Notes: a model not told the origin generated them from the sequence alone. A stretch of 64,000 nucleotides of DNA from Vicinamibacteria bacterium (GCA_965115855.1 OZ220470.1:975385-1039384), one strand, 5' to 3'; positions 45,578 to 61,202 are shown, counted from the first letter of the stretch. Made by a program: numbers and translations.

Positions 45578-47106
45578 GGACACAGATCACCAACCCGCGG
45601 CGAGCGGCGGCTTTCGGCTGCCTTCTCCTCGTCGCCGCCGTTCCGGGCGCGGCGCAGGACGGGATCCCCGATCGGCCGGAGGATCTGACCTTTCCGGAAT
45701 TCGCGTTCGAGGTTCCGGACGGCGCCGAGGCGGTCCACCGGATCCCGCACCCGGATGTCCGGGGCGGCATCCCGGTGGTGGTGGTGGAGGACCATGCCCT
45801 GCCCCTCATCCGCATCGGCATCACGCTCCGGATCGGGTCCTTCCTCGACCCGCGGGACCAAGTGGGTCTCGCATCGCTGACGGCAGGCATGATGCGGACC
45901 GGCGGCGCCGGCACGCGTTCCCCCGACGAACTTGACGAGCGGATCGAATTCCTCGCCGCCTCGATCGGCGTCTCCTCCTCCGGCGCCGAATCGAACGCCT
46001 CGCTGCGGACGATCACGCCGGTTTTCGACGAGAGCCTCGATCTCTTCTTCGACGTGCTGCGGCGGCCCCGTTTCGACGAGGCCCGCCTCGATATCCGCAA
46101 GGGCAACATGCGGGAGGACATGAAGCAACGCAACGATGACGGGGACCAGCTTCTCGGCCGCGAGTGGGACATGCTCCTTTACGGCGACGGGCACCACCGG
46201 GGCCGCAAGATGACCGTCACCCACCTCGACGCGATCGAGTCCGGTGACCTCCGCGAATTCCACCGCAAGTACTGGCGTCCCGAGCACATGGTGATCGCGG
46301 TTTCCGGGGACGTGGAGACCGCGGATATCCTCGAAACGCTCGGCGTCCGGCTGGCGGAGTGGCCAGCGGCCCCGGCCGACGCCGCGGTCTCCTGGCCGCC
46401 GGCGGATGCACCGGCTACCCCGGCACCCGGCATCTACTTCGTGGAGAAGGACATCCCGCAGGGCAAGGTCCGCATCGGGCACCTCGGCCCCCGCTGGACC
46501 AACTGGGAGACCTCCGAGCGCGCCGCCATCCAGGTCATGGACCATATCCTCGGCGCCAGCGGCTTCACCTCCCGCATCATGCAGCGGGTGCGGTCCGACG
46601 AAGGGCTCGCGTACGGCGCCGGCGGCCGGTACCGCATGAATCCCCTCGGCCCGAGCGGCTACTCGCTCGGCTACCAGTCGCAGAGCCCCACGGTGGCGCT
46701 CGCCGCCGCGATTTGCCTCGAGGAGGTGCGCCGGATGCGGGAAGAACTGGTATCCGGCGAAGAACTCGCCGTCGCCAAGCGGGCGCTGGTGGACAGCTTC
46801 CCGCGTCGGTTCGAGAGTGCTTCGGCGCGCAGCGGTCTCTTTTCCACCGACCTCCTGTTCGAGCGGGACCATTCCTACTGGGTCCGCTGGCGCGGGCAGG
46901 TCGAGACCGTCACTGCCGAGGATGTCCGGAACGCAGCCCGCAAATTCCTCCGGCCCGACGACATGGTGATGCTGGTGGTGGGGGTGTTCGACGACATCGC
47001 TCCCGGCGATCCGGAGGGCCGCAGCCGCCTCGATGCACTCCTCGACGGCAGGATCACCCGACTTCCGGCGCGCGACCCGCTCACCCTTGAGCCGGTCCGC
47101 GAGTAG
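45574..47106 (+). CDS. M16 family peptidase, non-catalytic partner subunit.
   Basis: M16 fold without HxxEH. It is translationally coupled (ATGA overlap) to the upstream M16 gene. Signal peptide present. Confidence 0.8.
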   Translation: MRTQITNPRRAAAFGCLLLVAAVPGAAQDGIPDRPEDLTFPEFAFEVPDGAEAVHRIPHPDVRGGIPVVVVEDHALPLIRIGITLRIGSFLDPRDQVGLASLTAGMMRTGGAGTRSPDELDERIEFLAASIGVSSSGAESNASLRTITPVFDESLDLFFDVLRRPRFDEARLDIRKGNMREDMKQRNDDGDQLLGREWDMLLYGDGHHRGRKMTVTHLDAIESGDLREFHRKYWRPEHMVIAVSGDVETADILETLGVRLAEWPAAPADAAVSWPPADAPATPAPGIYFVEKDIPQGKVRIGHLGPRWTNWETSERAAIQVMDHILGASGFTSRIMQRVRSDEGLAYGAGGRYRMNPLGPSGYSLGYQSQSPTVALAAAICLEEVRRMREELVSGEELAVAKRALVDSFPRRFESASARSGLFSTDLLFERDHSYWVRWRGQVETVTAEDVRNAARKFLRPDDMVMLVVGVFDDIAPGDPEGRSRLDALLDGRITRLPARDPLTLEPVRE

Positions 47107-47173
47107 GGCGTTGGGGCGCGCCGGCCAGGGAGCGGAACCGTCCGGCAGCAGACGTGATCCGGGAAGCGGCGCC

Positions 47174-49312
47174 ATGCGGGTCTCGCTCGCGTCGGGGTCG
47201 CTGGCGCTGGCCCTGTTCGCCGGGTGCGACGGTGACGGTCTCGACTATCCATATACGGACAAGGGGGATGTCATCGAGGAAATGCACGGAGTCGCCATCG
47301 AGGACCCGTACCGCTGGCTGGAAGACGACCACGATCCCGCAGTAGCGGACTGGGTGGACGCCCAGAACGAAGTCACCCGGGAATATCTGGACGCGCTTGC
47401 GGGGCGCGACGCGCTGCTCGCCCGGTTGACCGAACTCCATGACCACGCCCGGAAGGGCGCGCCCTTCCGGTGGGGCGGCCACTGGTTCCTTCGCGCCAAC
47501 GACGGCCTCCAGGACCAGGACGTGCTGTATCGGCTGACCGATCCGGACCAGCCGGAGGCCGAATGGCAGGTGCTGCTCGACCCGAACCGGCTCTCGGAGG
47601 ATGGCGCCGTCAGCCTCGAGACCACCGCCTTTGCCGAGGATGGATCGCTGCTCGCCTACGGGCTCGGGACCTCCGGCTCGGACTGGCGCGAATTCCATGT
47701 CATGGACGTCGGCACCGGCGAGACGTTCGACGACCACCTCCGCTGGATCAAGTTCTCCGATGCCGCATGGACCCGGGACAATGCCGGATTCCTGTACAGC
47801 CGGTATCCCGAACCGGACCCGGAAGCCGCCCAGGGAGGGGTGAACCGGAACCAGACGGTCTGGTACCACCGGATCGGCACCCCGCAGGACAGCGACCAGG
47901 TGGTGTACGCCCGCCCCGACCAGCCGGATTGGCTGACCGCGGCCCGGGTCTCCGATGACGGGCGATACGCCATCTTCGACATCCGCGAGGGAACCGACGA
48001 GCGGAGCCGCATCCATGTGATGGACCTCCGCGACCCGATGCATCCGGATTTCGGCGGCGAGGTGATCCGGATGCTTGACGACTTTGATGCCGCCTACGAC
48101 TTCCTCGGCAACGACGGTCCGATCTTCTACCTCCTGACCAACCGGGACGCCCCGCGCTACCGGGTGATCGCGGTGGACCTGCGTCAGCCCCAACCGGAGA
48201 ACTTCCGGGAGGTGATTCCCGAGGGCCGGGACCGGCTGCTGGGCGCCCGACTGCTCGGCAACCGTTTCGTGCTGTCCTACCTGACCGACGCGAGCACCTC
48301 GCTCCGGGTGCATGCCATGGACGGCGCCTTCGAACGGGACATCCCGCTGCCCGGACTCGGCTCGGTGGACCAGATCAGCGGCCGGCGGTCGGACCCGGTG
48401 ATGCACTTCGTCTTTTCCTCCTTCGTGTTCCCGCCGTCCGTCTTTCGCCACGACCTGGAGTCCGGCGAGACGGCGCTGACCTGGGAGCCGGACATCCCCT
48501 TCGACCGGGAGCAATTCGAGACGGTCCAGATCTTCTACGCCTCCGCCGACGGGACCGGGGTGCCGATGTTCCTGACCCACCGGAAGGACATGTCGAGGGA
48601 TGGCGACAACCCCGTCCTGCTCCATGGGTACGGCGGGTTCAACATCAGCCTCACCCCCGGGTTCAACCCGTCAAACCTGGTGTTCCTGGAGCACGGCGGG
48701 GTATACGCCCAGGCCAACCTGCGGGGCGGAGGCGAATACGGCGAGGAGTGGCACGAAGGCGGCCGGCTCGGGAACAAGCAGAACGTCTTCGACGACTTCA
48801 TCGCCGCCGCCGAGTTCCTTATCCACGACTCGGTAACCCAGCCCTCCCGTCTCGCCATCGTCGGCGGCTCGAACGGGGGCCTGCTGGTGGGGGCCGTGCT
48901 GAACCAGCGCCCCGAGCTCTTCGGGACGGCGCTGCCGGCGGTCGGAGTCATGGACATGCTCCGCTTTCACAAGTTCACCATCGGCCGGGCGTGGATCCCG
49001 GATTACGGCGACCCCGACGATCCGGAGATGTTCCCGGTACTGCGGGCGTACTCGCCGTACCACAATATCGCTCCGTCCGAGACGTTCCCGCCCACTCTCG
49101 TGACCACCGCCGACCATGACGACCGGGTGGCTCCCGGGCACTCGTTCAAGTACGCGGCCCGGCTCCAGGAAGTGCACGGCGGCGGGAGGGCGCCGATGCT
49201 GATCCGGATCCAGAAAGGCGCCGGACACGGTGCCGGGATGCCGGTCTCGATGCGGCTGGAATTGGACGCCGACCGGCTCGCGTTCCTGTTCCACCACCTC
49301 CGGATGGAGTGA
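47174..49312 (+). CDS. Prolyl oligopeptidase (S9A).
   Basis: Lipoprotein-type signal (LALALFAGCDG). N-terminal beta-propeller, then catalytic domain with GGSNGGLLVGA (GxSxGG) and a C-terminal His region. Confidence 0.9.
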   Translation: MRVSLASGSLALALFAGCDGDGLDYPYTDKGDVIEEMHGVAIEDPYRWLEDDHDPAVADWVDAQNEVTREYLDALAGRDALLARLTELHDHARKGAPFRWGGHWFLRANDGLQDQDVLYRLTDPDQPEAEWQVLLDPNRLSEDGAVSLETTAFAEDGSLLAYGLGTSGSDWREFHVMDVGTGETFDDHLRWIKFSDAAWTRDNAGFLYSRYPEPDPEAAQGGVNRNQTVWYHRIGTPQDSDQVVYARPDQPDWLTAARVSDDGRYAIFDIREGTDERSRIHVMDLRDPMHPDFGGEVIRMLDDFDAAYDFLGNDGPIFYLLTNRDAPRYRVIAVDLRQPQPENFREVIPEGRDRLLGARLLGNRFVLSYLTDASTSLRVHAMDGAFERDIPLPGLGSVDQISGRRSDPVMHFVFSSFVFPPSVFRHDLESGETALTWEPDIPFDREQFETVQIFYASADGTGVPMFLTHRKDMSRDGDNPVLLHGYGGFNISLTPGFNPSNLVFLEHGGVYAQANLRGGGEYGEEWHEGGRLGNKQNVFDDFIAAAEFLIHDSVTQPSRLAIVGGSNGGLLVGAVLNQRPELFGTALPAVGVMDMLRFHKFTIGRAWIPDYGDPDDPEMFPVLRAYSPYHNIAPSETFPPTLVTTADHDDRVAPGHSFKYAARLQEVHGGGRAPMLIRIQKGAGHGAGMPVSMRLELDADRLAFLFHHLRME

Positions 49313-49525: not shown

Positions 49526-49669
49526 TCCGGCGTCCGGGGCCCGGGCTTCACCCTCAAGGGTTGAAACGGGCACGCGGCCCTCTCCATCGGAGAGGCCGTT
49601 CCGGACGGTTCGGTTTGACCCCATGTGCGCCGGTGGCGCGCATTTCGAGAAAGAGGAGATCCTTTCCCG

Positions 49670-49957
49670 ATGAAAATCACACCCCTGCGGGACAACGTCG
49701 TGCTCCGCCGCCTCGAGGCGGAAGAGGAGCGCGTCGGTTCGATCATCATCCCCGACTCCGCCAAGGAGAAGCCGATGACCGCCGAGGTCATCGCCGTTGG
49801 CAACGGCAAGGTCCTGAAGGACGGAAGCCGTCAGCCGGTGGAGGTGGAGGCCGGCCAGCGCGTGCTGGTTGGCAAGTACTCCGGCTCCGAGGTCAAGCTC
49901 GAGGGTGACGACTTCCTCATCGTCCGCGAGGACGAGATCCTGGGCATCATCGCGTAG
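49670..49957 (+). CDS. groES: Co-chaperonin GroES.
   Basis: MKITPLRDNVVLRR..GSIIIPDSAKEKP..GKYSG is the canonical Cpn10. Confidence 0.95.
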   Translation: MKITPLRDNVVLRRLEAEEERVGSIIIPDSAKEKPMTAEVIAVGNGKVLKDGSRQPVEVEAGQRVLVGKYSGSEVKLEGDDFLIVREDEILGIIA

Positions 49958-51643
<1,686 letters not shown>

Positions 51644-51663
51644 GTCCGACCGTCACCTCCACG

Positions 51664-51698
51664 GCCCCCCGGGCGGCGACGTCCGGGGGGCTTTTTGC
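51664..51698 (+). terminator. Rho-independent terminator after groEL: a GC-rich hairpin (CCCCCGGG..CCCGGGGGG) followed by a T run.
   Basis: Seen directly in the sequence. Confidence 0.5.
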
Positions 51699-51764
51699 GA
51701 ACGCGCCGCCTACAATTACCGGGGGAGGCGCCCTCCCCGGCTCGACTGCCCAATCGGCGATCCG

Positions 51765-52991
51765 ATGAACAAGCACGCCGTGCTCCGCCATCTCCGGCTC
51801 GGCGAGGATGGACGCGTGGAGTTCAAGGAAGCAAGGGTAAGCGGAACCAGGGTCAAGGCGCCGAAACGCGATGATCTCGCCGACGAACTCGCCGCGTTCG
51901 CCAACGCCGACGGCGGCTTCGTCCTGCTGGGTGTCGAGGACCGGCCGATCAAGGTGGTCGGCGTGCCCCGGCCCGGCCTCGACGCCCTCGAGGAGCTGGT
52001 TCGCGGAATTTGCAACGACGCCATCCAGCCGCCTCTCCCGGCCGACATCCGGCGCATGGAACTCCCTGATGCGGCAGGCGTGGCCCAACCGGTGCTGCTG
52101 GTCGGCGTGCCGCGGAGCCTGTTCGTCCATGCGAGCCGGGGACGCTATCTTCGACGCATCGGAAGCTCGAAGCGGAGGCTCGATCCGATGGCGCTCCAGC
52201 GCCTGATGATGCTTCGCACGCAGTCCGGCGTGATTTCCTTCGATGAATCGCCGGTTCCCAGGACGACTCCGGATGACCTCGACCGGTCCGCCGCCGAGCG
52301 ATGCGTCAGCGGGGAAGCCGACTTCGACCTGGCGGTGCGCAAGCTGGCCCTGATCGTCAAGGACCCTGACGGGGCCGACCGGCTCTCGGTCGCGGGCGCT
52401 CTGATGTGCACGCCGGAACCGCAGCAATGGCTGCCGGCTGCCTATATCCAGGCCGTCTTCTATGTGGGCAACCGCATCGACCGCGACTATCAGACCGATG
52501 CCGCCGACCTCGGCGGACCGCTGGACGTGCAGATCCGGGAGGCGTGCCACTTCGTCCGCCGCAACATGCGAACCGCCGCGGTCAAGGACCTCGGACGCAT
52601 CGACGTGCCGCAATACAGCGAGCGGGCGGTTTTCGAGGCGGTGGTGAACGCGGTGGCGCACCGCGACTACTCGATGGGCAGCAGCCGCATCCGCCTGCAC
52701 CTGTTCGCGGACCGGCTGGAACTGATGGTTCCCGGAGAACTCGCCAACTCGTTGACCCCGGACGCCCTCCATCTGCGCCAGGCATCCCGGAACCAATTGA
52801 TCGCGTCGCTTCTCGCCCGGTTCCCTGGTCCGGGCGCGGTCGGCAGACAGAAGCTCATGGATCAGCGTGGCGACGGCGTTCCCCGCATTCGGGAGGAAAC
52901 CCGGACCCTCAGCGGTCGCCTCCCGGAGTACGCGATCGTGGCGCCCGGCGAGCTGCGCCTCGTGATTCCCGCCGCTAACCCGTTCGGGTAA
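51765..52991 (+). CDS. AlbA_2 (divergent AAA / Schlafen-like) domain fused to a HATPase_c_4 domain. It is a putative ATP-dependent DNA-binding regulator of the class often mis-annotated as RecG-like.
   Basis: N-terminal EFKEA...ELAAFANADGGFVLLGVED pattern, typical of AlbA_2/Schlafen core. C-terminal NAVAHRDY, a HATPase_c_4 hallmark. About 408 aa. Confidence 0.65.
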   Translation: MNKHAVLRHLRLGEDGRVEFKEARVSGTRVKAPKRDDLADELAAFANADGGFVLLGVEDRPIKVVGVPRPGLDALEELVRGICNDAIQPPLPADIRRMELPDAAGVAQPVLLVGVPRSLFVHASRGRYLRRIGSSKRRLDPMALQRLMMLRTQSGVISFDESPVPRTTPDDLDRSAAERCVSGEADFDLAVRKLALIVKDPDGADRLSVAGALMCTPEPQQWLPAAYIQAVFYVGNRIDRDYQTDAADLGGPLDVQIREACHFVRRNMRTAAVKDLGRIDVPQYSERAVFEAVVNAVAHRDYSMGSSRIRLHLFADRLELMVPGELANSLTPDALHLRQASRNQLIASLLARFPGPGAVGRQKLMDQRGDGVPRIREETRTLSGRLPEYAIVAPGELRLVIPAANPFG

Positions 52992-53289
52992 CGATCCAGG
53001 CCCCGAGGCCCGGTCCACCGGACGGGCGCGCTCCGGACGGATGGCGTGTTTGCTTCGGTCGTCCTGTGATCCGAATCCACGCGCTGGGCGCAACGGTCGG
53101 GTCGGAGCATCTCCCGACGGTCATCCACCGGGCCCGCTCGCGCGCGTCGAGGGCGCTAGTTGCCGGACGACGCCGAAACCAATTTCCAAGTCCTCTCGCT
53201 GGCCGGCGAAGCGCCGTCCGCCGGGATCCGTGGTCGGCGCTCCGTTCGGAATAGGCCGCGTTCGGCGCCCCGTGGGGCAGAATGCGCCG

Positions 53290-54630
53290 ATGCGCTTCGA
53301 CGGCGTCGGGAAGACCTTGGACCGACTTCTCGCCTGGGCGGACGAAAACGGGTGGTCCACCCGGCACGCGGAGCTCGCGGAAGCGCACCTGGCGGGATCG
53401 ACCAGGGCGCTCGGACTGTCCCCGGAGGAGATCATGCGCCGCCTCGGCCCGGCCGCGAGGCCGGTTGAACTCTTCGTACTGGATGCGTATCTCGCGGCTC
53501 GGTTCGGCAAGGTCGGAGACAAGAACGTGGTGGATGCCTATCTCGAAAAACGGGCGTGGAGGGAGAAACCGGGGGCCGTGGCGTTCCTCCGCGAGGTCCG
53601 CGACTCCGACCCTGCGCTCTACCAGGTGGAGCGGCGCGCTCCGGGGCGCCTGACCGTGACCGACCTCCTTCACGATCGGGATTCGATCCACGTGCGGGAC
53701 TGGAACGCTTCCGAAGTGTTGCGACCGGGACATTGCTTCGCCGGTCGGATCATCCACATCGGCAAGACGCTCGGCTTCTCGCTCGGCCTGCTGGCGCTTT
53801 CTCCCCGGGCGGTCGGACAATGCGTCGAGCGGATGAAGGGGGCGATCCGGGATGTCCACCGCCATTCCCCTGAATCCGTCCGGTCTCCTGGCGACGCGAT
53901 CGACGATTCGACGTTCATGCAGCTGGTGCTCAGAAGCGGCCTCGGCAGCGTCGCCTTCGTCGATGCGTTCATCCAGCATGCCTTGACCCCGCCGAAGCCC
54001 CCCGAGCTGGTCAACCACGACGGGGAAACCCTCGCTCCGACCACGATCCGTTTTCCCGTCCGGGGAAGCGAGGACGATGTGATCGAAGTGCTCGACGATA
54101 TGAGCGAACTCGAGCGCCACGAGGGACCGCACTGGGTTTGGCCCGGTACCAGCTCCGAGACCGACTACGAAGGGAAGACAGTCGAAACCAGAGTCGTGCT
54201 GGGGCGCGCGGAAATCGTGGACGGGGCGCTGACCCTCCAAGCGAACTCCGCTGAACGCGGCGAGCGCGGGCGGGAGCTGCTGGCCGGACGGCTGGGCAAG
54301 CTGGTGGGCACTCCCCTCACCTCCCACCAGACCCTCGAGGAGACGCGGAAGCAAGTCAAGCAGAAACCTCCTCCGGAGACCTCACCGGAGACCGACGCGC
54401 TCATCCTCGACCAGATCAGGGAGCACTACCGGCGCACGCTCGACGAGTCCGTTCCCGCGCTCGGAAACCGCACTCCCCGGAAGGCGGCGCGGACCCGGCA
54501 GGGGCGCGCCCGGGTAGAGGAGTGGATCCGGGGGATCGAAATCGCGGAAGCGCGGCGCGCCCACGCCGGCGGTCCGCCGGCGATGGACGCCGGCTGGATC
54601 CGCGAGGAGCTGAAGCTCCCGAAGCCGTAG
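53290..54630 (+). CDS. Hypothetical 446-aa protein with no recognisable family. It is the middle gene of the putative defence island.
   Basis: Coding-like GC3 bias and a defined start (MRFDGVGKTL). The upstream part of the tracked ORF is junk. Confidence 0.5.
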   Translation: MRFDGVGKTLDRLLAWADENGWSTRHAELAEAHLAGSTRALGLSPEEIMRRLGPAARPVELFVLDAYLAARFGKVGDKNVVDAYLEKRAWREKPGAVAFLREVRDSDPALYQVERRAPGRLTVTDLLHDRDSIHVRDWNASEVLRPGHCFAGRIIHIGKTLGFSLGLLALSPRAVGQCVERMKGAIRDVHRHSPESVRSPGDAIDDSTFMQLVLRSGLGSVAFVDAFIQHALTPPKPPELVNHDGETLAPTTIRFPVRGSEDDVIEVLDDMSELERHEGPHWVWPGTSSETDYEGKTVETRVVLGRAEIVDGALTLQANSAERGERGRELLAGRLGKLVGTPLTSHQTLEETRKQVKQKPPPETSPETDALILDQIREHYRRTLDESVPALGNRTPRKAARTRQGRARVEEWIRGIEIAEARRAHAGGPPAMDAGWIREELKLPKP

Positions 54631-55586
54631 CTTCCCGAAACCGGGGAGGGAATCAGGCGCGTACTGGTGGACGGCGTCGACAAGGCGACGGCAGATATTT
54701 TCCGGGTGAACCGCCGAACCATCGGGGGAAAATGCCACTTGGAGGCGCCGGCGCGGGCCCTCCGGCGGACGCCCGGAGGAGTCCTCAATCGCCTCGGACC
54801 GGAAGAGGGCCGGACACTCCCACTCATTTCATCCGGAAGACGTTCCTCGCAACCCGTTTCGGCGCGGACAAGCACGACACCGTGGTGAACGCATGCAACC
54901 CGTTCTTGCTGCTTGCCTGCGGTTACGGCGTCCGGGGGGACCTCAAGAAAATCCGCGGCGCAACGCTTTCGCCCTGCCAGGCAAGGGTAACCGACCACGA
55001 AAAACACCTGACGGTGATCGATCTCCTTCGGGGGGACGATCCGATTCGGGCGGAGGACCGCCAACTCGCCAGTTCCGTCCTCGTGGGGGGATTATTTGGC
55101 CGGCCGGCTCTTCCCTTGCGGCGGCTGGCCCGGTTTCGCTTCCACCGTGCTGCCTTTTCCCGGGAACCGGAAGGTGGAGTGCATGGAGCTTGTCTCCGTC
55201 ACCATCGTGCATCGCCGCGACGTCGCGCACCGAACCACCGGAAAGTGGCTCCGCTTGCCGTTTCTGATGAGGCTGCTTCTTTCGAGTGGAATCGGAAGCG
55301 GCATGTTCGCCTGGAAGTCCACCCGGCAGGTTCTGGAGCCGCGGGGAAGGACGGCGTATCGTGGCCCGAGCGGGAGGAGTTCCTGCTCGAGCAGAACGTG
55401 GCGCGCCTCTGCCGCGCTGGGACCGAGTCGCCGCTGGCGCCGGAAGACCGCGCGCGAAGGAAGGAATCGCGGCGGAGACCGTCGCTCCGGGATTCACTGA
55501 AGCCCCGGGGAGACTGATCCGGAGCAGGGAAGCGCGCGGCGCGTCAAGGCGCTGACGCAAGGTATCCTCGACTTGCTGCGCCGCCC

Positions 55587-57311
55587 ATGCTGACCCGCCT
55601 GACCATCCGCAACTTCAAGCGATTCAAGGAAGCCGTCATCGACCTCGACGACCCGGTTCTCCTCATCGGCCCCAACAACTCGGGGAAGACAACGCTTCTC
55701 CAGGCGCTGGCGCTCTGGGACCTCGGCATGCGGCGGTGGCGCGAGAAACGGGAGATCGGCGAAGCTTCGGCCCGGCGCCCCGGCGTGGCGATCGGCCGGG
55801 GCGACCTGATTACGGTCCCCCTCCGGGACGCGAAGCACCTCTGGCGGAATCGGCGCGTTCGGCAAGGCATCCCGGTCGAAGGCCGGATGCGAACCGACAA
55901 CATTCACATCGAGATCGTGGTCGAGGGCCTGTCGCGGGGACAGGACTGGAAGGCCGGGCTGGAGTTCGACTACGCCAACGAGGAATCGTTCCATTGCCGA
56001 CCGCTCCGCACCCGGCCGGACGGAAGCGAACGGATGCCGATCCCCGGGGAAGCGGCCTCGGTGCGGGTGGCGTATCTGCCCCCGATGTCGGGACTCGCGG
56101 CCCACGAGACCCGCCTCGAGCCGGGCGCGATTGCCGTCCGCATGGGAGAGGGACGAACCGCCGAGGTGTTGCGAAACCTGTGCCTTCGGATCAACACCGA
56201 GTTGCCGGAGGAGTGGGAGCGCCTCGAACGCCGGATCAGGGACCGGTTCGGCGTCCGCCTCGATCCTCCGAAGCATGTTGCCGAGCGCGGCGAGATCACC
56301 ATGTCCTACCGGGAGCACAAGGAGCGGCTGGACCTCACTGCCGCCGGCCGGGGCCTCCAGCAGACCATGCTGCTGCTGGCGCACCTCGTTCTGAACCCGC
56401 GGTCGGTCCTGATCCTCGATGAACCGGACGCCCACCTGGAAGTGATCCGCCAGCGGGAGACGTGCCAGCTTCTGCGAGAGACGGCGTCGGAGACCGGCGC
56501 CCAGATCATCGCCGCGAGCCACTCGGAAGTGCTGCTGCATGAGTTCGCAGCCAAGCGGGACGCCATCGTCGCGCTTCTCGGCGATCCCCACCGGGTCGAC
56601 AGCAAGAGCCAGGTCCTCAAGGCCCTCCGGGACATCGGATACGCCGACTACGAGCAAGCCCGCGGCGCGGGCTTCGTTCTCTATCTCGAGGGAACCACCG
56701 ACCTCGACATCCTGAGGGCCTTCGCTCGGCGCCTCGGACACGATGCGGCATCAACGGCGCTTGACGGCGCCTTCTTCAAACCCGTCGGCAACCAGCCCCA
56801 GGAGGCGATCCGGCACTTCCACGGACTGCGCGAAGCCGTCCCGGCGCTGCGGGGATGCGCGCTCTTCGACAAACTCGAAAAGGCACTGCCAGACATGCAC
56901 GGGATTCCGGGAGTGATGTGGAAACGCCGCGAGATCGAGAACTATCTGTGCTCCGACGCCACGCTGCTGGCCTGGGCCGAAGCGCCACGCACGCCCGGAG
57001 AGAAGCGCGACCTCTTCTCGCCGCGTCCGTTCTCTCCGACCGAGCGCCGGGACGCGATGGAAGAGGCGATCCGTAAGGTCCGGGAAGCGGTGAGTTTGCT
57101 CCGGCCCGGTACCGACCCGGCGTTGTCCAGGGTCAAGGCGGGCAACGAATACCTGGAGCCGGTATTCCGCGCTTACTTCGACCGGTTGGGCGAGAAGAAC
57201 CGGATGGGGAAGAACCGCTTTCACGAGCTGGTTCCCCACATCCCGGATGGGGATATGGACCCGGAAGTCGGAGACAAGCTGGACTTCATCACCGCCGCGG
57301 CAAACGACTGA
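55587..57311 (+). CDS. OLD-family ABC-type ATPase fused to a C-terminal TOPRIM/DUF4435-like domain. It resembles class 1 OLD nucleases and fused PARIS AriA-AriB proteins.
   Basis: Walker A LLIGPNNSGKTTLLQAL. A long insertion follows. Walker B is VLILDEPDAHLE and the H-loop is IAASHSEV. C-terminal motif FVLYLEGTTDLDILRAF, which is a TOPRIM-type conserved Glu. Confidence 0.7.
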   Translation: MLTRLTIRNFKRFKEAVIDLDDPVLLIGPNNSGKTTLLQALALWDLGMRRWREKREIGEASARRPGVAIGRGDLITVPLRDAKHLWRNRRVRQGIPVEGRMRTDNIHIEIVVEGLSRGQDWKAGLEFDYANEESFHCRPLRTRPDGSERMPIPGEAASVRVAYLPPMSGLAAHETRLEPGAIAVRMGEGRTAEVLRNLCLRINTELPEEWERLERRIRDRFGVRLDPPKHVAERGEITMSYREHKERLDLTAAGRGLQQTMLLLAHLVLNPRSVLILDEPDAHLEVIRQRETCQLLRETASETGAQIIAASHSEVLLHEFAAKRDAIVALLGDPHRVDSKSQVLKALRDIGYADYEQARGAGFVLYLEGTTDLDILRAFARRLGHDAASTALDGAFFKPVGNQPQEAIRHFHGLREAVPALRGCALFDKLEKALPDMHGIPGVMWKRREIENYLCSDATLLAWAEAPRTPGEKRDLFSPRPFSPTERRDAMEEAIRKVREAVSLLRPGTDPALSRVKAGNEYLEPVFRAYFDRLGEKNRMGKNRFHELVPHIPDGDMDPEVGDKLDFITAAAND

Positions 57312-57560
57312 CACGAGCTCCCGGTCCAATGACATGAGTTCAGCCGGCAATGACATGAGCTCCCGGCCGTTGGGCGTACGAAGCGCGGCATCCCCGGTCA
57401 GAACGGGGAATCCGCCTCGGAATTCCACCAGAAAGACACTGATATTGACCGCTTGGCGCCGGTTCCGGACTGCGCCAATGACACGAGCTCCGGCTCAAGG
57501 AACACGAGCTCGGCCCGGAATTGACACCAGATCGACCGGGCCCCGGGTGGGCTCCTGTCA
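57300..57560. repeat. Five or six direct copies of an about 21-bp motif CAATGACAYGAGCTCCSGGYC. The first copy overlaps the stop of the OLD-family gene.
   Basis: Direct reading of the sequence. It lies in the convergent intergenic region between the OLD-family gene and the PadR-associated membrane protein gene. Confidence 0.5.
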
Positions 57561-57589: not shown

Positions 57590-58936
57590 CTACCGGAAAC
57601 CGAAGAGCGGCGGGAACGCCGTCACCACCAATGCCGCCCACCCGGCATAGACCAGCAACCAGGACGTCTGCCAGCGCTCCAGGGCGGCGAAGCCGACGCC
57701 AGTATGCAGAAACCGGGCGTAGTGGAACGCCGAACCGGCCAGACTCGTGAGCAGGATGAGGTTCTCCCCGAGAGCCGCCACCCGGTTGGGCGTGAAGCCG
57801 AACTCGCCGATGCGGCCGAGCATCGCCCCGAGCGCAAGAAGGTCCACCACCAGCGCGCTGACCGCGAGCAAAAGCGCCAGTCCGTCGAAGAGACCGGGAG
57901 GCGCTTGCGGATCGCGGGCCGAAACGTTGTAGAGCAGCAGTCCCGCGACCAGCACCAGCAGCAGGTCGAAGAGGATCAGCACTTCGCGCTCGACGTCGAT
58001 CGGGTTTCCGGTCCCGATCATGGCCGCGAGGAAGACCAGCAGGGCTGCCGAGAGCAGCGGCGTGAAGATCCACGCCAGCACCGGCGCCATGTTCTCGATG
58101 ACGCTCTTCTTGAGCTCGACGAGGCCCGACGCCACCACCAGCGCCCCGGCGATCCCGCACGGAACCACGAAGCGCCCGACCACCCATTCGGCGTTGATGC
58201 CGATAGCAGCGAAACTCAGCACGGTGAGCGCGGTCACCACCACGCCGCCGAGTGCAATCAGCACCAGATAGAGGAACAGTTCGCCGGAGAAGCGGACGAA
58301 GTCCATGCGCGCCCCGCCGGCGAACCAGCGCCCGCCGGAATAGGCGAAACCCACCACGAGCCAGGTCGCGATGGGAAGGTGAAGGGCGACCAGCGCCTCG
58401 GTATCGGCGCCCTCGACGAAAGGATGAATGTTGGCCGCCACCGCCGCAGCCGTGAACCCGCCCACGATTCCGAGGAGGGCGACCCGGTCCAGATTCCGCT
58501 TCCAGGCAAAATACGCCGCCACCATGGGAAACGCGAACAGGCTGAAGTTCCGGGCGTAGAACGGTGCGCCGGCGTCGTCGAGACGCATGCCGAAGAGCTC
58601 CGGAATCTTGATCAGGATCGCGCCGGCGACGGCACATCCCAGGACCACCAAGGCCTCCCGGCGCGCCGCCTCCGCCTCCGGAGGCGCCACCAGCTGCTTC
58701 CACAGCCGCTCGGAGTGCTCGCGGGCGAACTCGCGCGAAATCCCGTCGAGACTGCCCATCCGCTTGATCGCCACCAGAAACGCCTCGTCGGATGCGAGCC
58801 CCGACTCCACCAATTCCGCCATCCGATCGCGCAGATGGCCTTCGAGCTCCTCGACATCCGGGCCGTCCACCGCCGGACGGCCCCGAAGGTAGGCGCGCCA
58901 CCGGGCAATGAGGTTCTCGACCGACGCTTCGTTCAT
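57590..58936 (-). CDS. PadR-associated polytopic membrane protein. It has a DUF1700-like cytoplasmic N-terminal domain followed by about 10 TM helices.
   Basis: Start MNEASVENLIARW overlaps the PadR stop (ATGA). The N-terminal approximately 80 aa are not hydrophobic. The remainder is strongly hydrophobic. Confidence 0.6.
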   Translation of the reverse strand: MNEASVENLIARWRAYLRGRPAVDGPDVEELEGHLRDRMAELVESGLASDEAFLVAIKRMGSLDGISREFAREHSERLWKQLVAPPEAEAARREALVVLGCAVAGAILIKIPELFGMRLDDAGAPFYARNFSLFAFPMVAAYFAWKRNLDRVALLGIVGGFTAAAVAANIHPFVEGADTEALVALHLPIATWLVVGFAYSGGRWFAGGARMDFVRFSGELFLYLVLIALGGVVVTALTVLSFAAIGINAEWVVGRFVVPCGIAGALVVASGLVELKKSVIENMAPVLAWIFTPLLSAALLVFLAAMIGTGNPIDVEREVLILFDLLLVLVAGLLLYNVSARDPQAPPGLFDGLALLLAVSALVVDLLALGAMLGRIGEFGFTPNRVAALGENLILLTSLAGSAFHYARFLHTGVGFAALERWQTSWLLVYAGWAALVVTAFPPLFGFR

Positions 58937-59316
58937 GCCGACGCCATGGACATTTCCGACCAGGCGCCGCGCAGGGCATCCGCGACCACCCGCCACTGGC
59001 GCCGCTCGGCGGCGAGCTGCGCCCGGCCCCGGGGGGTGATCCGGTAGTACTTGCGGCGGCGTCCGCTCTCCGCCCGCTCCCACCGCGCCACCACGTGGCC
59101 GAGCCGCTCGAGCCGGTGCAGGATCGGATACAGCATGCCGTCGGTCCACTGAAGCTCGCCGTTCGAAAGCTCGGCCACCCGCTTCAGGATGGCGTAGCCG
59201 TAACTGTCCGCCTCGGCGAGGATGGCGAGCACGAGCGGCGTGGCGGAAGCCGCCACCAGGTCCTTGCCGATCTGCATGCCTTGAGGCATTATGCCTTGAT
59301 CTGCTATGTATGTCAA
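58933..59316 (-). CDS. PadR-family transcriptional regulator. The true start is probably at MPQGMQ (about 59289).
   Basis: Winged-helix pattern LVLAILAEADSYGYAILKRVAELSNGELQWTDGMLYPILHRLERLGHV. Confidence 0.8.
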   Translation of the reverse strand: MTYIADQGIMPQGMQIGKDLVAASATPLVLAILAEADSYGYAILKRVAELSNGELQWTDGMLYPILHRLERLGHVVARWERAESGRRRKYYRITPRGRAQLAAERRQWRVVADALRGAWSEMSMASA

Positions 59317-59371: not shown

Positions 59372-60211
59372 TCAACCCCCCGTTTCGTACTTGACCTGGG
59401 CGGGCACCGGTCGGAGATCCCGGATGAGTCCGAGCCAGCTCATCACCACCAGCACATACCAGGTCACGTCGATCTCCCACCAGAAGAATCCCTGCCGGGT
59501 CGCCGCCGGGTAACGATGATGGTTGTTGTGCCAGCCTTCGCCGAGAGTCAGCAGCGCGAGGAGCAGGCTGTTGCGGCTGTCATCCCGGGTCCGGTAGCGG
59601 CGCCGCCCCATGCGATGGGCAGCCGAATTGATCAGGGAGGTGGCGTGGAAGAGCGCCACCGTGGAGATGAAGAACCCCCACACCAGCATCTGCGGGCCGC
59701 TGGTGTCCACCCCTGCCCCCTGGAGCAGCGTCCCGAGGCCGAAGAGTCCCGTTGCCAGCAGGATCGGCACCACCGTGTCGAAGCGGTCCAGCAGGCGCAG
59801 CTCCGGGTAGCGGGCCAGGTCCGGCACCACGTCGAGCCGGGTGGGGAAGTTGGCCGGGGCGGTGATCCAACCCATATGGCTCCACCAGAAGCCGTGCTGA
59901 AGCGGCGAATGGACATCCCCCGGACCGTCGGAGTGGCGGTGGTGGAGCCGGTGGTGCGCCGCCCACCAGAGCGGCCCCCGCTGGACCGCGGAAGCTCCGC
60001 AGAGGGCGAAGACGAACTGCATCGCCCGCGATGTGCGGTAGGTCCGGTGGGAGAAGTAGCGGTGATAGAACGCAGTGATGGCGAACGCCCGGAGCCAGTA
60101 CAGCGCGAGCGCCACGCCGACCGCAGCCCAGCTCCATCCGACGAGGATCGGCGCCAGGCACATGAGATGGACGGCGAGGAAGGGGGCCACCCGGCCCCAC
60201 TCCACCTGCAT
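59372..60211 (-). CDS. Acyl-CoA (stearoyl-CoA delta-9-type) fatty acid desaturase.
   Basis: Three histidine boxes (HRYFSHR, HRLHHRHSD, HNNHHRYP) and 4 TM segments. Start chosen at MQVEWGRV. Confidence 0.8.
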   Translation of the reverse strand: MQVEWGRVAPFLAVHLMCLAPILVGWSWAAVGVALALYWLRAFAITAFYHRYFSHRTYRTSRAMQFVFALCGASAVQRGPLWWAAHHRLHHRHSDGPGDVHSPLQHGFWWSHMGWITAPANFPTRLDVVPDLARYPELRLLDRFDTVVPILLATGLFGLGTLLQGAGVDTSGPQMLVWGFFISTVALFHATSLINSAAHRMGRRRYRTRDDSRNSLLLALLTLGEGWHNNHHRYPAATRQGFFWWEIDVTWYVLVVMSWLGLIRDLRPVPAQVKYETGG

Positions 60212-61202
60212 CGCGCGGCCATCCGCGACCGGCTGGTAGGACCAGCTGTCCAGCCAGACCAGCACCGTCCGGAGCGGATGGCGTGGCGACCTGGCCCTCG
60301 CGGGCGCTACCGGCACGCGAACGCCCGCCACGATCCGACCAGGGGAAAAGGAGTCATGGGCGCGGGACGGTACAACGGCCGGGCTTCCGAAGCGAGCGGC
60401 GCGAACCGGAACTGCCGTCCGGCCGCCGCCGGGATCCCCTGCCAGCGTTCGCGCCGGGACGCGGACGTCCCTACGGCGGCAACCCCCCGGGGTGGCGTCA
60501 CCTCGTCGGAGACCGGGCCGCGGCCACTGCGAAATTCCCCGCCCGGATGTTGAAGGTGCAGAGCACGCCGTTGGTCGGTCGGCGCGCCGTGGTGGTCGGC
60601 GCGATCCTGCGGTTGCGACTCGGGGCGCCGTCGCTCGCCGCCGGATCGTCCGTCAGGCAGGACGCTGGACGGCGGGGACAGGATTCCCGCGCCGGGTGGC
60701 CGGCTCCCCGAGATGGGGAAGAGTCCGGTCCGCTGGCCTGGTGGACCGAACCAGGCCAGCCACGGATCCGGCGGAGGACCGGGAACGTCTTCGGTCAGGG
60801 CCCGGACCAGGACCGAAAGCGGAACGCCGCCCCGGCCTGATTCCGGACGGGCGTTTTCGAAGGGTTGTCGATCACCTCCCATGCTTCGTCACTCCAGGTC
60901 TCGTCGGGACTCCCGGTCCCGGCCTCGGTGCTCGTTGCCTCCCCGACACACTCTCGGGATCAGGCGACAAGCGCGGCGTCGGGACACTCCGGCGGATTCT
61001 TCGATCTTCCGGGGCGGCTCATGGAGTGTCCGCCGCCTTTCGAACCCGCGCCCCGGCCGCTGCGATACGAGACCGGAGACCAGAACGCGAAGGGGCGCCG
61101 TCATCGCCAAATCCGGAAGCCTCCGTTCGTTCCGTTGATCGGACCGTTCCCCGGGTCGTGGGTGGTGGAGGCTCCTGAACCCTCGATGCGCCACCGGCCG
61201 CT

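What the first reader, a model, noticed from the sequence alone, without database searches (positions are those of the whole stretch)
51765..57311. Candidate defence island directly downstream of groESL: AlbA_2/HATPase_c_4 protein, an unknown 446-aa protein, and a fused OLD-family ATPase-TOPRIM
Three co-directional genes lie between the groEL terminator and a convergent PadR operon. Two of them carry domains that are repeatedly found in antiviral systems: a Schlafen-like AlbA_2 fused to HATPase_c_4, and an OLD-family ABC ATPase fused to a TOPRIM/DUF4435 nuclease-like module. The third gene (53290..54630) has no recognisable family. Nine hundred bp of degenerate, non-coding-looking sequence separates it from the OLD-like gene. 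The combination of AlbA_2/HATPase_c_4, an unknown protein and OLD/PARIS-like ATPase-TOPRIM is not an arrangement I can match to a described system such as Gabija (GajA+GajB), PARIS (AriA+AriB), Septu or Lamassu. It may therefore be a variant or novel multi-gene immunity module. GC content is the same as the surrounding core genes, so it is not an obviously recent import.
Basis: partly seen in the sequence, partly recalled or inferred. Interest (0 to 1): 0.7.

Follow-up and report, generated by a model that had tools for sequence, protein, structure and literature searches.

The report
Three unrelated defence-type genes, not one system
The three genes downstream of groEL are real, and two belong to known anti-phage protein families, but they do not travel together in other genomes, so this is an ordinary patch of independent single-gene defence candidates rather than a new multi-gene immune system.

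Summary
The sequence observation holds. Three co-directional genes lie between a real groEL terminator and a convergent PadR operon.

- **Gene A (51765-52991)** is a prokaryotic Schlafen fused to a GHKL/HisKinase-type ATPase. The Ex4ExK nuclease motif is invariant. This is the commonest published bacterial Schlafen architecture.
- **Gene B (53290-54630)** belongs to a large unannotated family (~4,700 clusters). Only a C-terminal Xre/MbcA/ParS-like domain is recognisable.

The multi-gene-module interpretation fails its own test:
- Gene B is absent from all 80 gene-C loci.
- Gene C is absent from all 85 gene-B loci.
- Gene A appears near gene C once in 80 loci, and there it sits inside a type I R-M operon.
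- Neither B nor C has any conserved neighbour.
- In related genomes gene A lies alone after groEL, or directly against the fatty-acid desaturase. B and C are therefore additions specific to this genome.
- The gaps are 298 and 956 bp, which argues against an operon.

Verdict: a small variable spot holding three autonomous genes, which are new members of known kinds. Interest is low to moderate.

The parts
51663..51696 (+). groEL intrinsic terminator: a 13-bp GC-rich hairpin followed by U5. It separates gene A from groESL transcription.
   Evidence: RNA fold; sequence read directly.
51765..52991 (+). Gene A, 408 aa. A prokaryotic Schlafen (AlbA_2) nuclease domain fused to a GHKL/HisKinase-like ATPase (HATPase_c_4). 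Autonomous, and resident at this position in the lineage.
   Evidence: Pfam. PHROG 12156 E 4.6e-44. Orthologues at 75-78% identity are syntenic with groEL or with the fatty-acid desaturase.
51804..51827 (+). Schlafen catalytic motif Ex4ExK (E14, E19, K21; sequence EDGRVEFK).
   Evidence: Invariant in 21 aligned family members. Coordinates. Motif definition from PMC13056530.
52626..52889 (+). GHKL ATPase motifs of gene A: the N-box EAVVNAVAHRDY (N295 invariant) and the G1 box RGDGVP (D370 and G371 invariant).
   Evidence: Assignment of the boxes rests on general knowledge of the Bergerat fold.
53290..54630 (+). Gene B, 446 aa. Member of a large unannotated family of ~470-aa proteins. Autonomous, function unknown.
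   Evidence: Full HMMER search finds 4,723 cluster representatives at E<=1e-3. No conserved neighbour in 85 loci. No PADLOC hit.
54415..54627 (+). C-terminal Xre/MbcA/ParS-like (DUF2384-type) segment of gene B: HYRRTLDESVPALGNRTPRKAA...WIRGIE.
   Evidence: The window protein is sub-threshold (16.5 bits against a cut-off of 24.5). 10 of 49 relatives hit this family, best E 7e-7.
54631..55586 (.). 956-bp gene-free spacer. Codon-like GC periodicity switches phase along it, which suggests a decayed gene. No homology was found.
55587..56600 (+). Gene C N-terminal ABC ATPase (residues 1-~338). Walker A at 55668-55691, signature-like GRGLQQ at 56340-56366, Walker B at 56406-56429, H-loop at 56511-56528.
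   Evidence: Pfam AAA_15/AAA_21. PDB profile hit to T. scotoductus OLD 6p74, E 1.3e-10. Full-length Foldseek top hits are 6p74 and GajA. Motifs.
56598..57311 (+). Gene C C-terminal TOPRIM-like, AriB-like domain (residues 338-574). Invariant E368-G369 (56688-56693), D428 (56868-56870) and RREIxxY at 447-453, with E451/N452 >=90% (56925-56945).

Best explanation
The interval is a small variable spot that holds three self-contained genes. They have nothing to do with each other mechanistically.

**Gene A** is a bacterial Schlafen fused to a GHKL ATPase.
- Shown: the domains, the intact Ex4ExK motif, and the intact ATPase boxes.
- Inferred from published bacterial and human Schlafens: the GHKL part acts as sensor or regulator, and on activation the Schlafen domain cuts tRNA and stalls translation.
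- Shown: gene A is an old resident of this lineage at this position.

**Gene C** is a one-protein OLD/PARIS-type immune nuclease.
- Shown: an ABC ATPase with intact Walker A/B and H-loop, and a C-terminal domain with a TOPRIM fold closest to PARIS AriB, carrying an invariant Glu, Asp and REIENY-type motif (E451/N452 >=90%).
- Inferred by analogy with PARIS and P2 Old: the ATPase oligomer holds the nuclease inactive. A phage cue (an anti-restriction protein, or aberrant or replicating DNA) then releases or opens the TOPRIM site. The site cleaves tRNA (less likely DNA) and aborts infection.

**Gene B** is a standalone member of a large uncharacterised family.
- Shown: it is found on Tn3-type transposons and in prophage contigs, often near the sampled contig end.
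- Weakly inferred: its C-terminal Xre/MbcA/ParS-like domain is a protein-binding or autoinhibitory module of a toxin-antitoxin-like or defence protein.

B and C, together with the 956-bp remnant-like spacer, are insertions specific to this genome. They lie between gene A and the fatty-acid desaturase gene.
For: **Independence of the three genes.**
- tblastn of A and B against 80 gene-C loci finds B in 0 and A in 1.
- tblastn of A and C against 85 gene-B loci finds C in 0 and one weak A-like hit (26% identity, opposite strand).
- All-against-all clustering of neighbours gives no partner for C. The top clusters are SDR (10 loci), ABC ATPase (9) and HsdM (4). It gives none for B either.

**Synteny.**
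- L089 reads S9 peptidase, groES, groEL (95% identity), A (77%), then a TonB receptor.
- L090/L091 read SIR2_2, A (75%), then a convergent fatty-acid desaturase (80%). Neither carries B or C.
- The closest C orthologues (65-68%) sit alone among PQQ-repeat genes.

**Gene A.** Pfam. Ex4ExK and the GHKL boxes are invariant. Slfn-HisKinase fusions make up 34% of 5,930 bacterial Schlafens, and other Schlafen fusions are phage-activated tRNases (PMC13056530). A homologue is embedded between hsdM and hsdS.

**Gene C.**
- Pfam and PADLOC.
- PDB profile hit to T. scotoductus OLD.
- Foldseek of the full model puts T. scotoductus OLD and GajA on top.
- 26% identity, E 3e-27, over residues 1-456 to a Nostoc protein. 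That protein hits PADLOC AriAB at 2.2e-32 and sits between pglX and pglZ of a BREX-1 system.
- Every family-invariant residue is retained.

**Mechanistic precedents.** PARIS AriB is a tRNase released by AriA on sensing Ocr (PMC11464382). P2 Old is a tRNase opened by destabilisation of its tetramer (bioRxiv 10.64898/2026.07.10.737580).
Against: - No experiment exists. The antiviral role of all three genes is inferred.
- The two HisKinase-type Schlafens tested in E. coli gave no protection against the phage panel used.
- Gene C's TOPRIM is not recognised by any sequence model. Foldseek support is not significant.
- A canonical DxD is not evident. Only D428 is invariant in 'FD(R/K)LE'.
- Gene C homologues mostly sit among housekeeping genes, and they are unusually conserved for a defence gene (>=50% identity across phyla).
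- The co-occurrence survey covers 80 + 85 loci, many on short contigs, not all genomes.
Confidence: 0.75

Rival explanations
1. A, B and C act together as one novel three-gene immune system, for example with the Schlafen and TOPRIM proteins as effectors and B as sensor or adaptor.
For: The genes are co-directional and adjacent, and nothing on the opposite strand interrupts them. Two of them carry defence-type domains. In L025 an A homologue and a C homologue lie within 2 kb of each other.
Against: - B is in 0 of 80 gene-C loci and C in 0 of 85 gene-B loci. A is near C in 1 of 80 loci, and there A belongs to a type I R-M operon.
- Relatives carry A alone at the same locus.
- The gaps are 298 and 956 bp.
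- Each family is widespread as a full-length standalone gene.
Confidence: 0.03
2. Gene C is not an immune gene. It is a DNA-repair or chromosome-maintenance ATPase-nuclease of the RecF/SbcC/Rad50 type, kept for a housekeeping role.
For: - Conservation is very high: 50-70% identity over the full length across more than 10 phyla.
- Neighbours are mostly metabolic or transport genes rather than defence genes.
- The ATPase is of the Rad50/SMC type.
- The family is nearly absent from plasmids.
Against: - The family is patchy and shows no synteny between genomes.
- It is absent from L089, a close relative of this genome.
- It is present in viral contigs.
- The C-terminal fold is closest to the PARIS effector AriB.
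- A homologue is embedded in BREX.
- Published class 1 OLD genes are likewise single genes found away from defence islands (PMC10568477).
Confidence: 0.12
3. B and C form a two-gene module specific to this genome, joined by a regulatory RNA or small gene hidden in the 956-bp spacer.
For: Both are absent from relatives, so they may have arrived together. The spacer shows codon-like GC periodicity.
Against: - The B and C families never co-occur elsewhere.
- The spacer gives no Rfam match at E<=1 and no homology to anything fetched or to plasmids.
- The GC phase switches along the spacer, as in a frameshifted remnant rather than an intact gene.
Confidence: 0.05

Closest known systems
Merged PARIS (single-polypeptide AriAB; AriA ABC ATPase + AriB DUF4435/TOPRIM)
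   Same: - One polypeptide with an N-terminal AAA_15/AAA_21 ABC ATPase and a C-terminal TOPRIM.
- The best PADLOC hit is AriA (1.4e-22). The AriAB model aligns across the ATPase-TOPRIM junction (residues 273-454).
- A 26%-identical relative hits AriAB at 2.2e-32 and is embedded in BREX.
- Merged ariAB clades are published (PMC11464382).
   Different: - Pfam DUF4435 is not detected.
- The AriAB score is only 45.5 bits and the match is partial.
- The isolated C-terminal domain hits no PADLOC model.
- The protein is 574 aa against a ~694-position AriAB profile.
- It forms its own tightly conserved clade.
- Trigger and substrate are unknown.
Class 1 OLD family nucleases (P2 Old, T. scotoductus OLD 6P74, V. 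cholerae Vc OLD)
   Same: - A single gene with no conserved partner.
- ABC ATPase plus TOPRIM architecture.
- T. scotoductus OLD is the top PDB sequence hit (E 1.3e-10) and the top full-length Foldseek hit.
- It typically lies outside defence islands, as described for class 1 (PMC10568477).
   Different: - Sequence similarity is confined to the P-loop and the signature/Walker B segments.
- The OLD-like_TOPRIM Pfam model is essentially not matched (3 of 28 members, faint).
- No clear DxD motif.
HEC-04 / IbfA (validated single-protein ABC ATPase-TOPRIM defences)
   Same: The same two-domain, one-gene design, as described in PMC12111858.
   Different: No specific sequence relationship was shown here. 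HEC-04 is not among the best 25 PADLOC hits of gene C. I did not test it further.
Gabija (GajA + GajB)
   Same: GajA models hit the ATPase (E ~1e-12). GajA structures are among the top Foldseek hits.
   Different: There is no UvrD-like GajB gene next to gene C, either here or in 80 related loci.
Prokaryotic Schlafen-HisKinase fusions (pSlfn; Perez Taboada et al. 2026) - gene A
   Same: - SLFN/AlbA_2 domain with an invariant Ex4ExK motif, plus a HisKinase/GHKL-like ATPase.
- This is the most frequent pSlfn architecture (34%).
- Defence-type neighbours occur in relatives: embedding in a type I R-M operon, and an adjacent SIR2_2 gene.
   Different: No HisKinase-type pSlfn has yet been shown to protect, since the two tested gave no defence. 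Here the gene is a lineage-conserved resident next to groEL rather than a mobile island gene.
Xre/MbcA/ParS antitoxins (DUF2384 C-terminal toxin-binding domain) - gene B
   Same: The C-terminal ~50 residues resemble PF09722 at family level (10 of 49 members, best E 7e-7).
   Different: - Gene B is ~450-480 aa, not ~110-150 aa.
- It has no Xre HTH match.
- No RES or ART toxin gene is adjacent in 85 loci.
- The window protein itself is below the Pfam threshold.

Membership tests
One conserved multi-gene defence system (A+B+C) | The component families co-occur as neighbours across genomes | tested here: not met
   B is in 0 of 80 gene-C loci and A in 1 of 80. C is in 0 of 85 gene-B loci. Relatives carry A alone.
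One conserved multi-gene defence system (A+B+C) | Operon-like spacing | tested here: not met
   The gaps are 298 bp (A-B) and 956 bp (B-C).
OLD family nuclease, class 1 | N-terminal ABC ATPase with Walker A, Walker B and H-loop | tested here: met
   Pfam AAA_15 E 7e-20 and AAA_21 E 2e-18. Motifs GPNNSGKT, VLILDEPD and SHS. PDB profile hit to 6p74.
OLD family nuclease, class 1 | C-terminal TOPRIM domain with a catalytic Glu and an acidic DxD cluster | tested here: inconclusive
OLD family nuclease, class 1 | A single gene without a conserved helicase, retron or AriB partner | tested here: met
   Neighbour clustering over 80 loci. Contexts of the closest orthologues.
OLD family nuclease, class 1 | ATP hydrolysis and metal-dependent nuclease activity | not testable with these tools
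   Needs biochemistry.
PARIS (AriA/AriB or merged AriAB) | DUF4435 (PF14491) TOPRIM effector domain | tested here: not met
   No PF14491 hit for the protein, its C-terminal domain or 28 relatives. The only support is a structural resemblance to AriB.
PARIS (AriA/AriB or merged AriAB) | Match to the system's profile models (PADLOC AriA / AriAB) | tested here: inconclusive
   AriA hits at 1.4e-22 (79 bits), but through the generic ATPase ends. AriAB gives 45.5 bits over residues 273-454 only. The isolated C-terminal domain gives none.
PARIS (AriA/AriB or merged AriAB) | Activation by anti-restriction proteins and tRNA cleavage | not testable with these tools
   Needs phage and tRNA assays.
Gabija | Adjacent GajB UvrD-like helicase | tested here: not met
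   There is no helicase gene next to gene C. The 956-bp spacer lies upstream and a convergent membrane/PadR operon lies downstream. No such cluster appears in 80 loci.
Prokaryotic Schlafen (pSlfn), HisKinase class - gene A | SLFN/AlbA_2 nuclease domain with the Ex4(E/D)xK motif | tested here: met
   Pfam E 2e-13. E14, E19 and K21 are invariant in 21 sequences.
Prokaryotic Schlafen (pSlfn), HisKinase class - gene A | Fused HisKinase/GHKL-type ATPase | tested here: met
   HATPase_c_4 E 2.7e-14. N295, D370 and G371 are invariant.
Prokaryotic Schlafen (pSlfn), HisKinase class - gene A | Phage-triggered tRNA cleavage and protection | not testable with these tools
   Needs experiments. Published tests of two HisKinase-type pSlfns were negative on the panel used.
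Xre/MbcA/ParS-type antitoxin - gene B | C-terminal DUF2384 toxin-binding domain | tested here: inconclusive
   The window protein scores 16.5 bits against a cut-off of 24.5. 10 of 49 relatives match, best E 7e-7.
Xre/MbcA/ParS-type antitoxin - gene B | Adjacent RES/ART toxin gene and a small HTH antitoxin format | tested here: not met
   No conserved neighbour in 85 loci. The protein is 446 aa.

The most novel reading that the evidence does not exclude
Gene C may represent a distinct, so far undescribed clade of one-protein PARIS/OLD-like immune nucleases.
- Current Pfam and PADLOC models cannot see its TOPRIM domain.
- It has spread by horizontal transfer through more than 10 phyla of mostly uncultured bacteria, and one archaeal MAG.
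- It has stayed unusually conserved (>=50% identity).

Separately, gene B's ~4,700-cluster family could be a new standalone defence or toxin-antitoxin-like protein built around a DUF2384-type C-terminal domain.
Probability: 0.3. Interest if true: 0.5.

Novelty: new member of a known kind. Interest (0 to 1): 0.28.

Why it matters
The result removes a false lead: this is not a new three-gene immune system. It also assigns two of the genes to families with recently published mechanisms, namely bacterial Schlafen tRNases and OLD/PARIS ABC-ATPase-TOPRIM abortive nucleases.

Two things remain of modest interest.
- The gene-C clade is abundant in environmental and symbiont MAGs. It is missed by standard TOPRIM/DUF4435 models and is unusually conserved. 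Adding it to defence-finder model sets would improve annotation of uncultured bacteria.
- Gene B belongs to a large family that has no annotation at all.

Tried and rejected
- **Exact look-up of the window's gene B.** No context came back.
- **Word-indexed homology search for B.** It found only 7 relatives and made the family look rare. The full HMMER scan corrected this to thousands.
- **PDB profile search for gene B.** Nothing.
- **The 956-bp spacer.** Rfam at gathering and at E<=1, tblastx/blastn against all fetched loci and the rest of the window, and blastn against plasmids gave only compositional noise.
- **Flanking repeats.** The search found no direct repeats that would mark an insertion.
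- **Resolvase adjacency of gene B.** I considered it as a defence marker. Four of the five cases are copies of one Tn3-type element (96.7-100% nt identity), so it counts as two independent cases only.
- **First metagenome scan.** I repeated it with 15 sequences.

Full report
**What is there**

The window is about 67.5% GC. On the + strand it carries an S9 peptidase gene (47033-49312), groES (49625-49957) and groEL (49997-51643). A 13-bp GC hairpin followed by U5 at 51663-51696 is a convincing intrinsic terminator for groEL.

Three + strand genes follow:
- A: 51765-52991, 408 aa
- B: 53290-54630, 446 aa
- C: 55587-57311, 574 aa

Their frames are confirmed by codon-position GC. Third-position GC is about 0.8-0.9 and second-position GC about 0.4-0.5.

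Downstream, on the opposite strand, lie a membrane-protein gene (57590-59149), a PadR-like gene (58933-59316) and a fatty-acid desaturase gene (59372-60331). GC content of A, B and C (0.676, 0.676, 0.666) equals that of the window (0.675).

**Gene A**

Pfam finds SLFN_AlbA_2 (residues 14-139, E 2e-13) and HATPase_c_4 (307-390, E 2.7e-14), both above threshold. The homology search scored 6,408 relatives at E<=0.001. The 120 best are 396-482 aa long (mostly ~404-420), 58-78% identical, and carry the same two domains.

In an alignment of 21 members:
- the Schlafen catalytic motif Ex4ExK (E14, E19, K21; EDGRVEFK) is invariant;
- the GHKL N-box Asn (N295) is invariant;
- the G1 box (D370, G371) is invariant.

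A 2026 paper catalogued 5,930 prokaryotic Schlafens.
- Fusion to a HisKinase-type domain is the commonest architecture (34%, plus 19% with an added HTH).
- Two other Schlafen fusions protect E. coli.
- One of those two (RorSlfn5) is shown to be a phage-activated tRNase.
- The two HisKinase-type proteins tested gave no protection on that panel (PMC13056530).

The PADLOC hit of gene A to a 1,121-position pAgo model fits the published SLFN-GHKL-Argonaute fusions.

Gene A is therefore a member of a described family. Its role is predicted, not proven.

**Gene C**

*ATPase half.* Pfam gives AAA_15 and AAA_21. Walker A, Walker B and the H-loop are intact. A 28-sequence profile hits the class 1 OLD nuclease of Thermus scotoductus in the PDB (E 1.3e-10), followed by Rad50, GajA and PtuA. 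The full-length AlphaFold model has mean pLDDT 78.6. By Foldseek it matches T. scotoductus OLD best, over its whole length, and then GajA and PtuA.

- No Pfam DUF4435 or TOPRIM family is matched by the protein, by the isolated domain, or (beyond 3 faint OLD-like_TOPRIM hits) by 28 relatives.
- PADLOC and PDB sequence profiles see nothing in the isolated domain.
- A model of residues 338-574 built from 16 sequences is confident (pLDDT 89.8, pTM 0.87). It shows a beta-alpha-beta-alpha-beta core.
- Foldseek puts two AriB chains first, but not significantly (E 0.05-0.1).
- The family-invariant residues fall where a TOPRIM needs them: E368-G369 after the first strand, D428 after the third, and an RREIENY-type motif at 447-453 (R447, R448, E449, I450 and Y453 invariant; E451 and N452 >=90%).

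*An independent bridge.* A 625-aa 'AAA family ATPase' on a Nostoc plasmid aligns with gene C over residues 1-456 (26% identity, E 3e-27), including LEG/LED and EIENYL. It hits the PADLOC merged-PARIS model AriAB at 2.2e-32. It is embedded between pglX and pglZ of a BREX-1 system.

I conclude that gene C is a fused ABC ATPase-TOPRIM of the OLD/PARIS superfamily. Its TOPRIM is nearer to AriB than to OLD, but it is a distinct clade that existing models do not capture.

**Gene B**

The word-indexed search found only seven relatives. The exhaustive HMMER scan found 4,723 cluster representatives at E<=1e-3 and 465 at E<=1e-30. Nearly all are full-length proteins of about 450-480 aa.

No Pfam family passes threshold for the window protein. 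Ten of 49 relatives match the Xre/MbcA/ParS C-terminal toxin-binding domain in the last ~60 residues (best E 7e-7). There are no hits to PADLOC, PHROGs or the PDB.

Its function stays unknown. The best I can offer is a protein-binding or autoinhibitory C-terminal module on a larger uncharacterised body.

**Do the three belong together?**

From gene C's side:
- I fetched 80 loci from different species, each with up to 8 kb on either side.
- tblastn finds gene B in none and gene A in one.
- All-against-all clustering of neighbouring ORFs finds no partner. The largest clusters are short-chain dehydrogenases (10 loci), ABC ATPases (9), MacB-type permeases, histidine kinases and HsdM (4). Their positions and strands vary.
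- In the single locus with both A and C (L025, a Nitrospira MAG), the A homologue overlaps the stop of hsdM by 4 nt and precedes an hsdS fusion. It is an embedded gene of a type I R-M operon, not a partner of C.

From gene B's side:
- In 85 loci, gene C is never present. There is one weak A-like hit, 26% identical and on the opposite strand.
- The only recurring neighbours are a small serine resolvase and Fic. The resolvase is seen in five loci, but four are copies of one Tn3-type element. Fic is seen in 3-4 loci.

**Synteny**

- In one relative (L089), where groEL is 95% and the S9 peptidase 87% identical, gene A (77%) follows groEL exactly as here. A TonB-receptor gene comes next.
- In two others (L090/L091), gene A (75%) is directly followed by the convergent fatty-acid desaturase (80%), and is preceded by a 1,176-aa SIR2_2 protein.
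- None of these carries B or C.
- The closest gene-C orthologues (65-68%) lie alone among PQQ-repeat genes in two other genomes.

So A is a long-standing resident of this position. B, the spacer and C (and perhaps the PadR operon) are additions in this genome. The gaps between the genes are 298 and 956 bp.

**The spacer**

Region 54631-55586 has no ORF with support, no Rfam match even at E<=1, and no similarity to anything fetched or to plasmids. Its codon-like GC periodicity changes phase twice. This is what a frameshifted gene remnant looks like, but I could not identify one.

**How it most likely works**

*Shown:* the domain content, the intact catalytic and nucleotide-binding motifs, and the independence of the three genes.

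*Inferred, for gene C:* by analogy with PARIS, the ATPase part senses a phage cue and the TOPRIM is then freed to cut tRNA.
- In PARIS, AriA holds AriB and releases it on binding the anti-restriction protein Ocr. AriB then cuts tRNA-Lys (PMC11464382).
- In P2 Old, destabilisation of the tetramer opens the TOPRIM site for tRNA cleavage (bioRxiv 10.64898/2026.07.10.737580).
- DNA nicking, as in Vibrio Vc OLD (PMC12392090), is the alternative.

*Inferred, for gene A:* GHKL-controlled tRNA cleavage by the Schlafen domain.

*Gene B:* unknown.

I put about 0.9 on the three genes not being one system. I put about 0.85 on gene C being an OLD/PARIS-type ATPase-nuclease, and about 0.6 on it being antiviral.

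**Comparison with what is known, and novelty**

Single-protein ABC ATPase-TOPRIM defences are already established: P2 Old, Vc OLD, HEC-04/IbfA and merged AriAB. Schlafen-HisKinase fusions are already catalogued. Genes A and C are therefore new members of known kinds.

What is a little unusual about gene C:
- The clade is very widespread.
- Identity stays at or above 50% across Acidobacteriota, Chloroflexota, Proteobacteria, Nitrospirota, Planctomycetota, Poribacteria and a Bathyarchaeota MAG.
- The family is nearly absent from sequenced plasmids.
- Its nuclease domain escapes current profile models.

Gene B's family is large and entirely unannotated.

**Verdict**

The interpretation as a novel multi-gene module is not supported. 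This is an ordinary variable spot with three autonomous genes, two of them of recognised defence types. Interest is 0.28.

Noticed in passing
window 57309-57521: A 16-nt motif, TGACAYGAGCTCC(C/G)G(G/C), occurs three times (57309, 57351, 57479). It lies in the 278-bp convergent intergenic region between the stop of gene C and the end of the membrane-protein gene (families D1/D4).
   Followed up: no
window 54631-55586: The 956-bp spacer has codon-like GC periodicity that switches phase. The third position is in phase 2 at 54780-54960, phase 0 at 55020-55260, and phase 2 again after 55320. This looks like a frameshifted gene remnant. No homology was found by tblastx, Rfam or plasmid blastn.
   Followed up: partly
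L090 6440-11224 and L091 6440-11224: A 1,176-aa SIR2_2 protein ends 31 bp upstream of the 75%-identical orthologue of gene A. This may be a SIR2 + Schlafen-GHKL pair. PADLOC also aligns residues 191-332 of gene A to pAgo-associated SIR2 proteins.
   Followed up: no
L025 8001-15693: In a Nitrospira MAG the gene order is: gene-C homologue, hsdM, AlbA_2/HATPase_c_4 gene (its start overlaps the hsdM stop by 4 nt), hsdS fused to a nucleotidyltransferase. The Schlafen-GHKL gene is thus embedded in a type I R-M operon, with the OLD/PARIS-like gene immediately upstream.
   Followed up: partly
L172 4001-5878 (Nostoc sp. ATCC 53789 plasmid pNsp_c): A 625-aa AriAB-like fused ATPase-TOPRIM is embedded between pglX and pglZ of a BREX-1 system. 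It is annotated only as 'AAA family ATPase'.
   Followed up: partly
L007-L086 (gene C family): The family keeps 50-58% identity across more than 10 bacterial phyla and a Bathyarchaeota MAG. Many hits come from sponge or coral symbiont MAGs (Poribacteria; RHO, APA and SB bins). This is unusually high conservation for a presumed defence gene.
   Followed up: no
window 51627-51764: The database version of gene A is 454 aa (P0129). That implies a start at 51627, which overlaps groEL and lies upstream of the groEL terminator. Relatives are mostly 396-420 aa, so 51765 is the more likely start and the public annotation is probably too long.
   Followed up: partly
L141, L144, L149, L151, L171; L190-L199: Gene-B relatives sit 3-31 bp downstream of a small serine resolvase on Tn3-type elements. 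Four of these five loci are copies of one element. In most of 11 IMG/VR viral contigs the relative lies in the stretch of the contig nearest one end. Both observations point to mobile cargo.
   Followed up: partly
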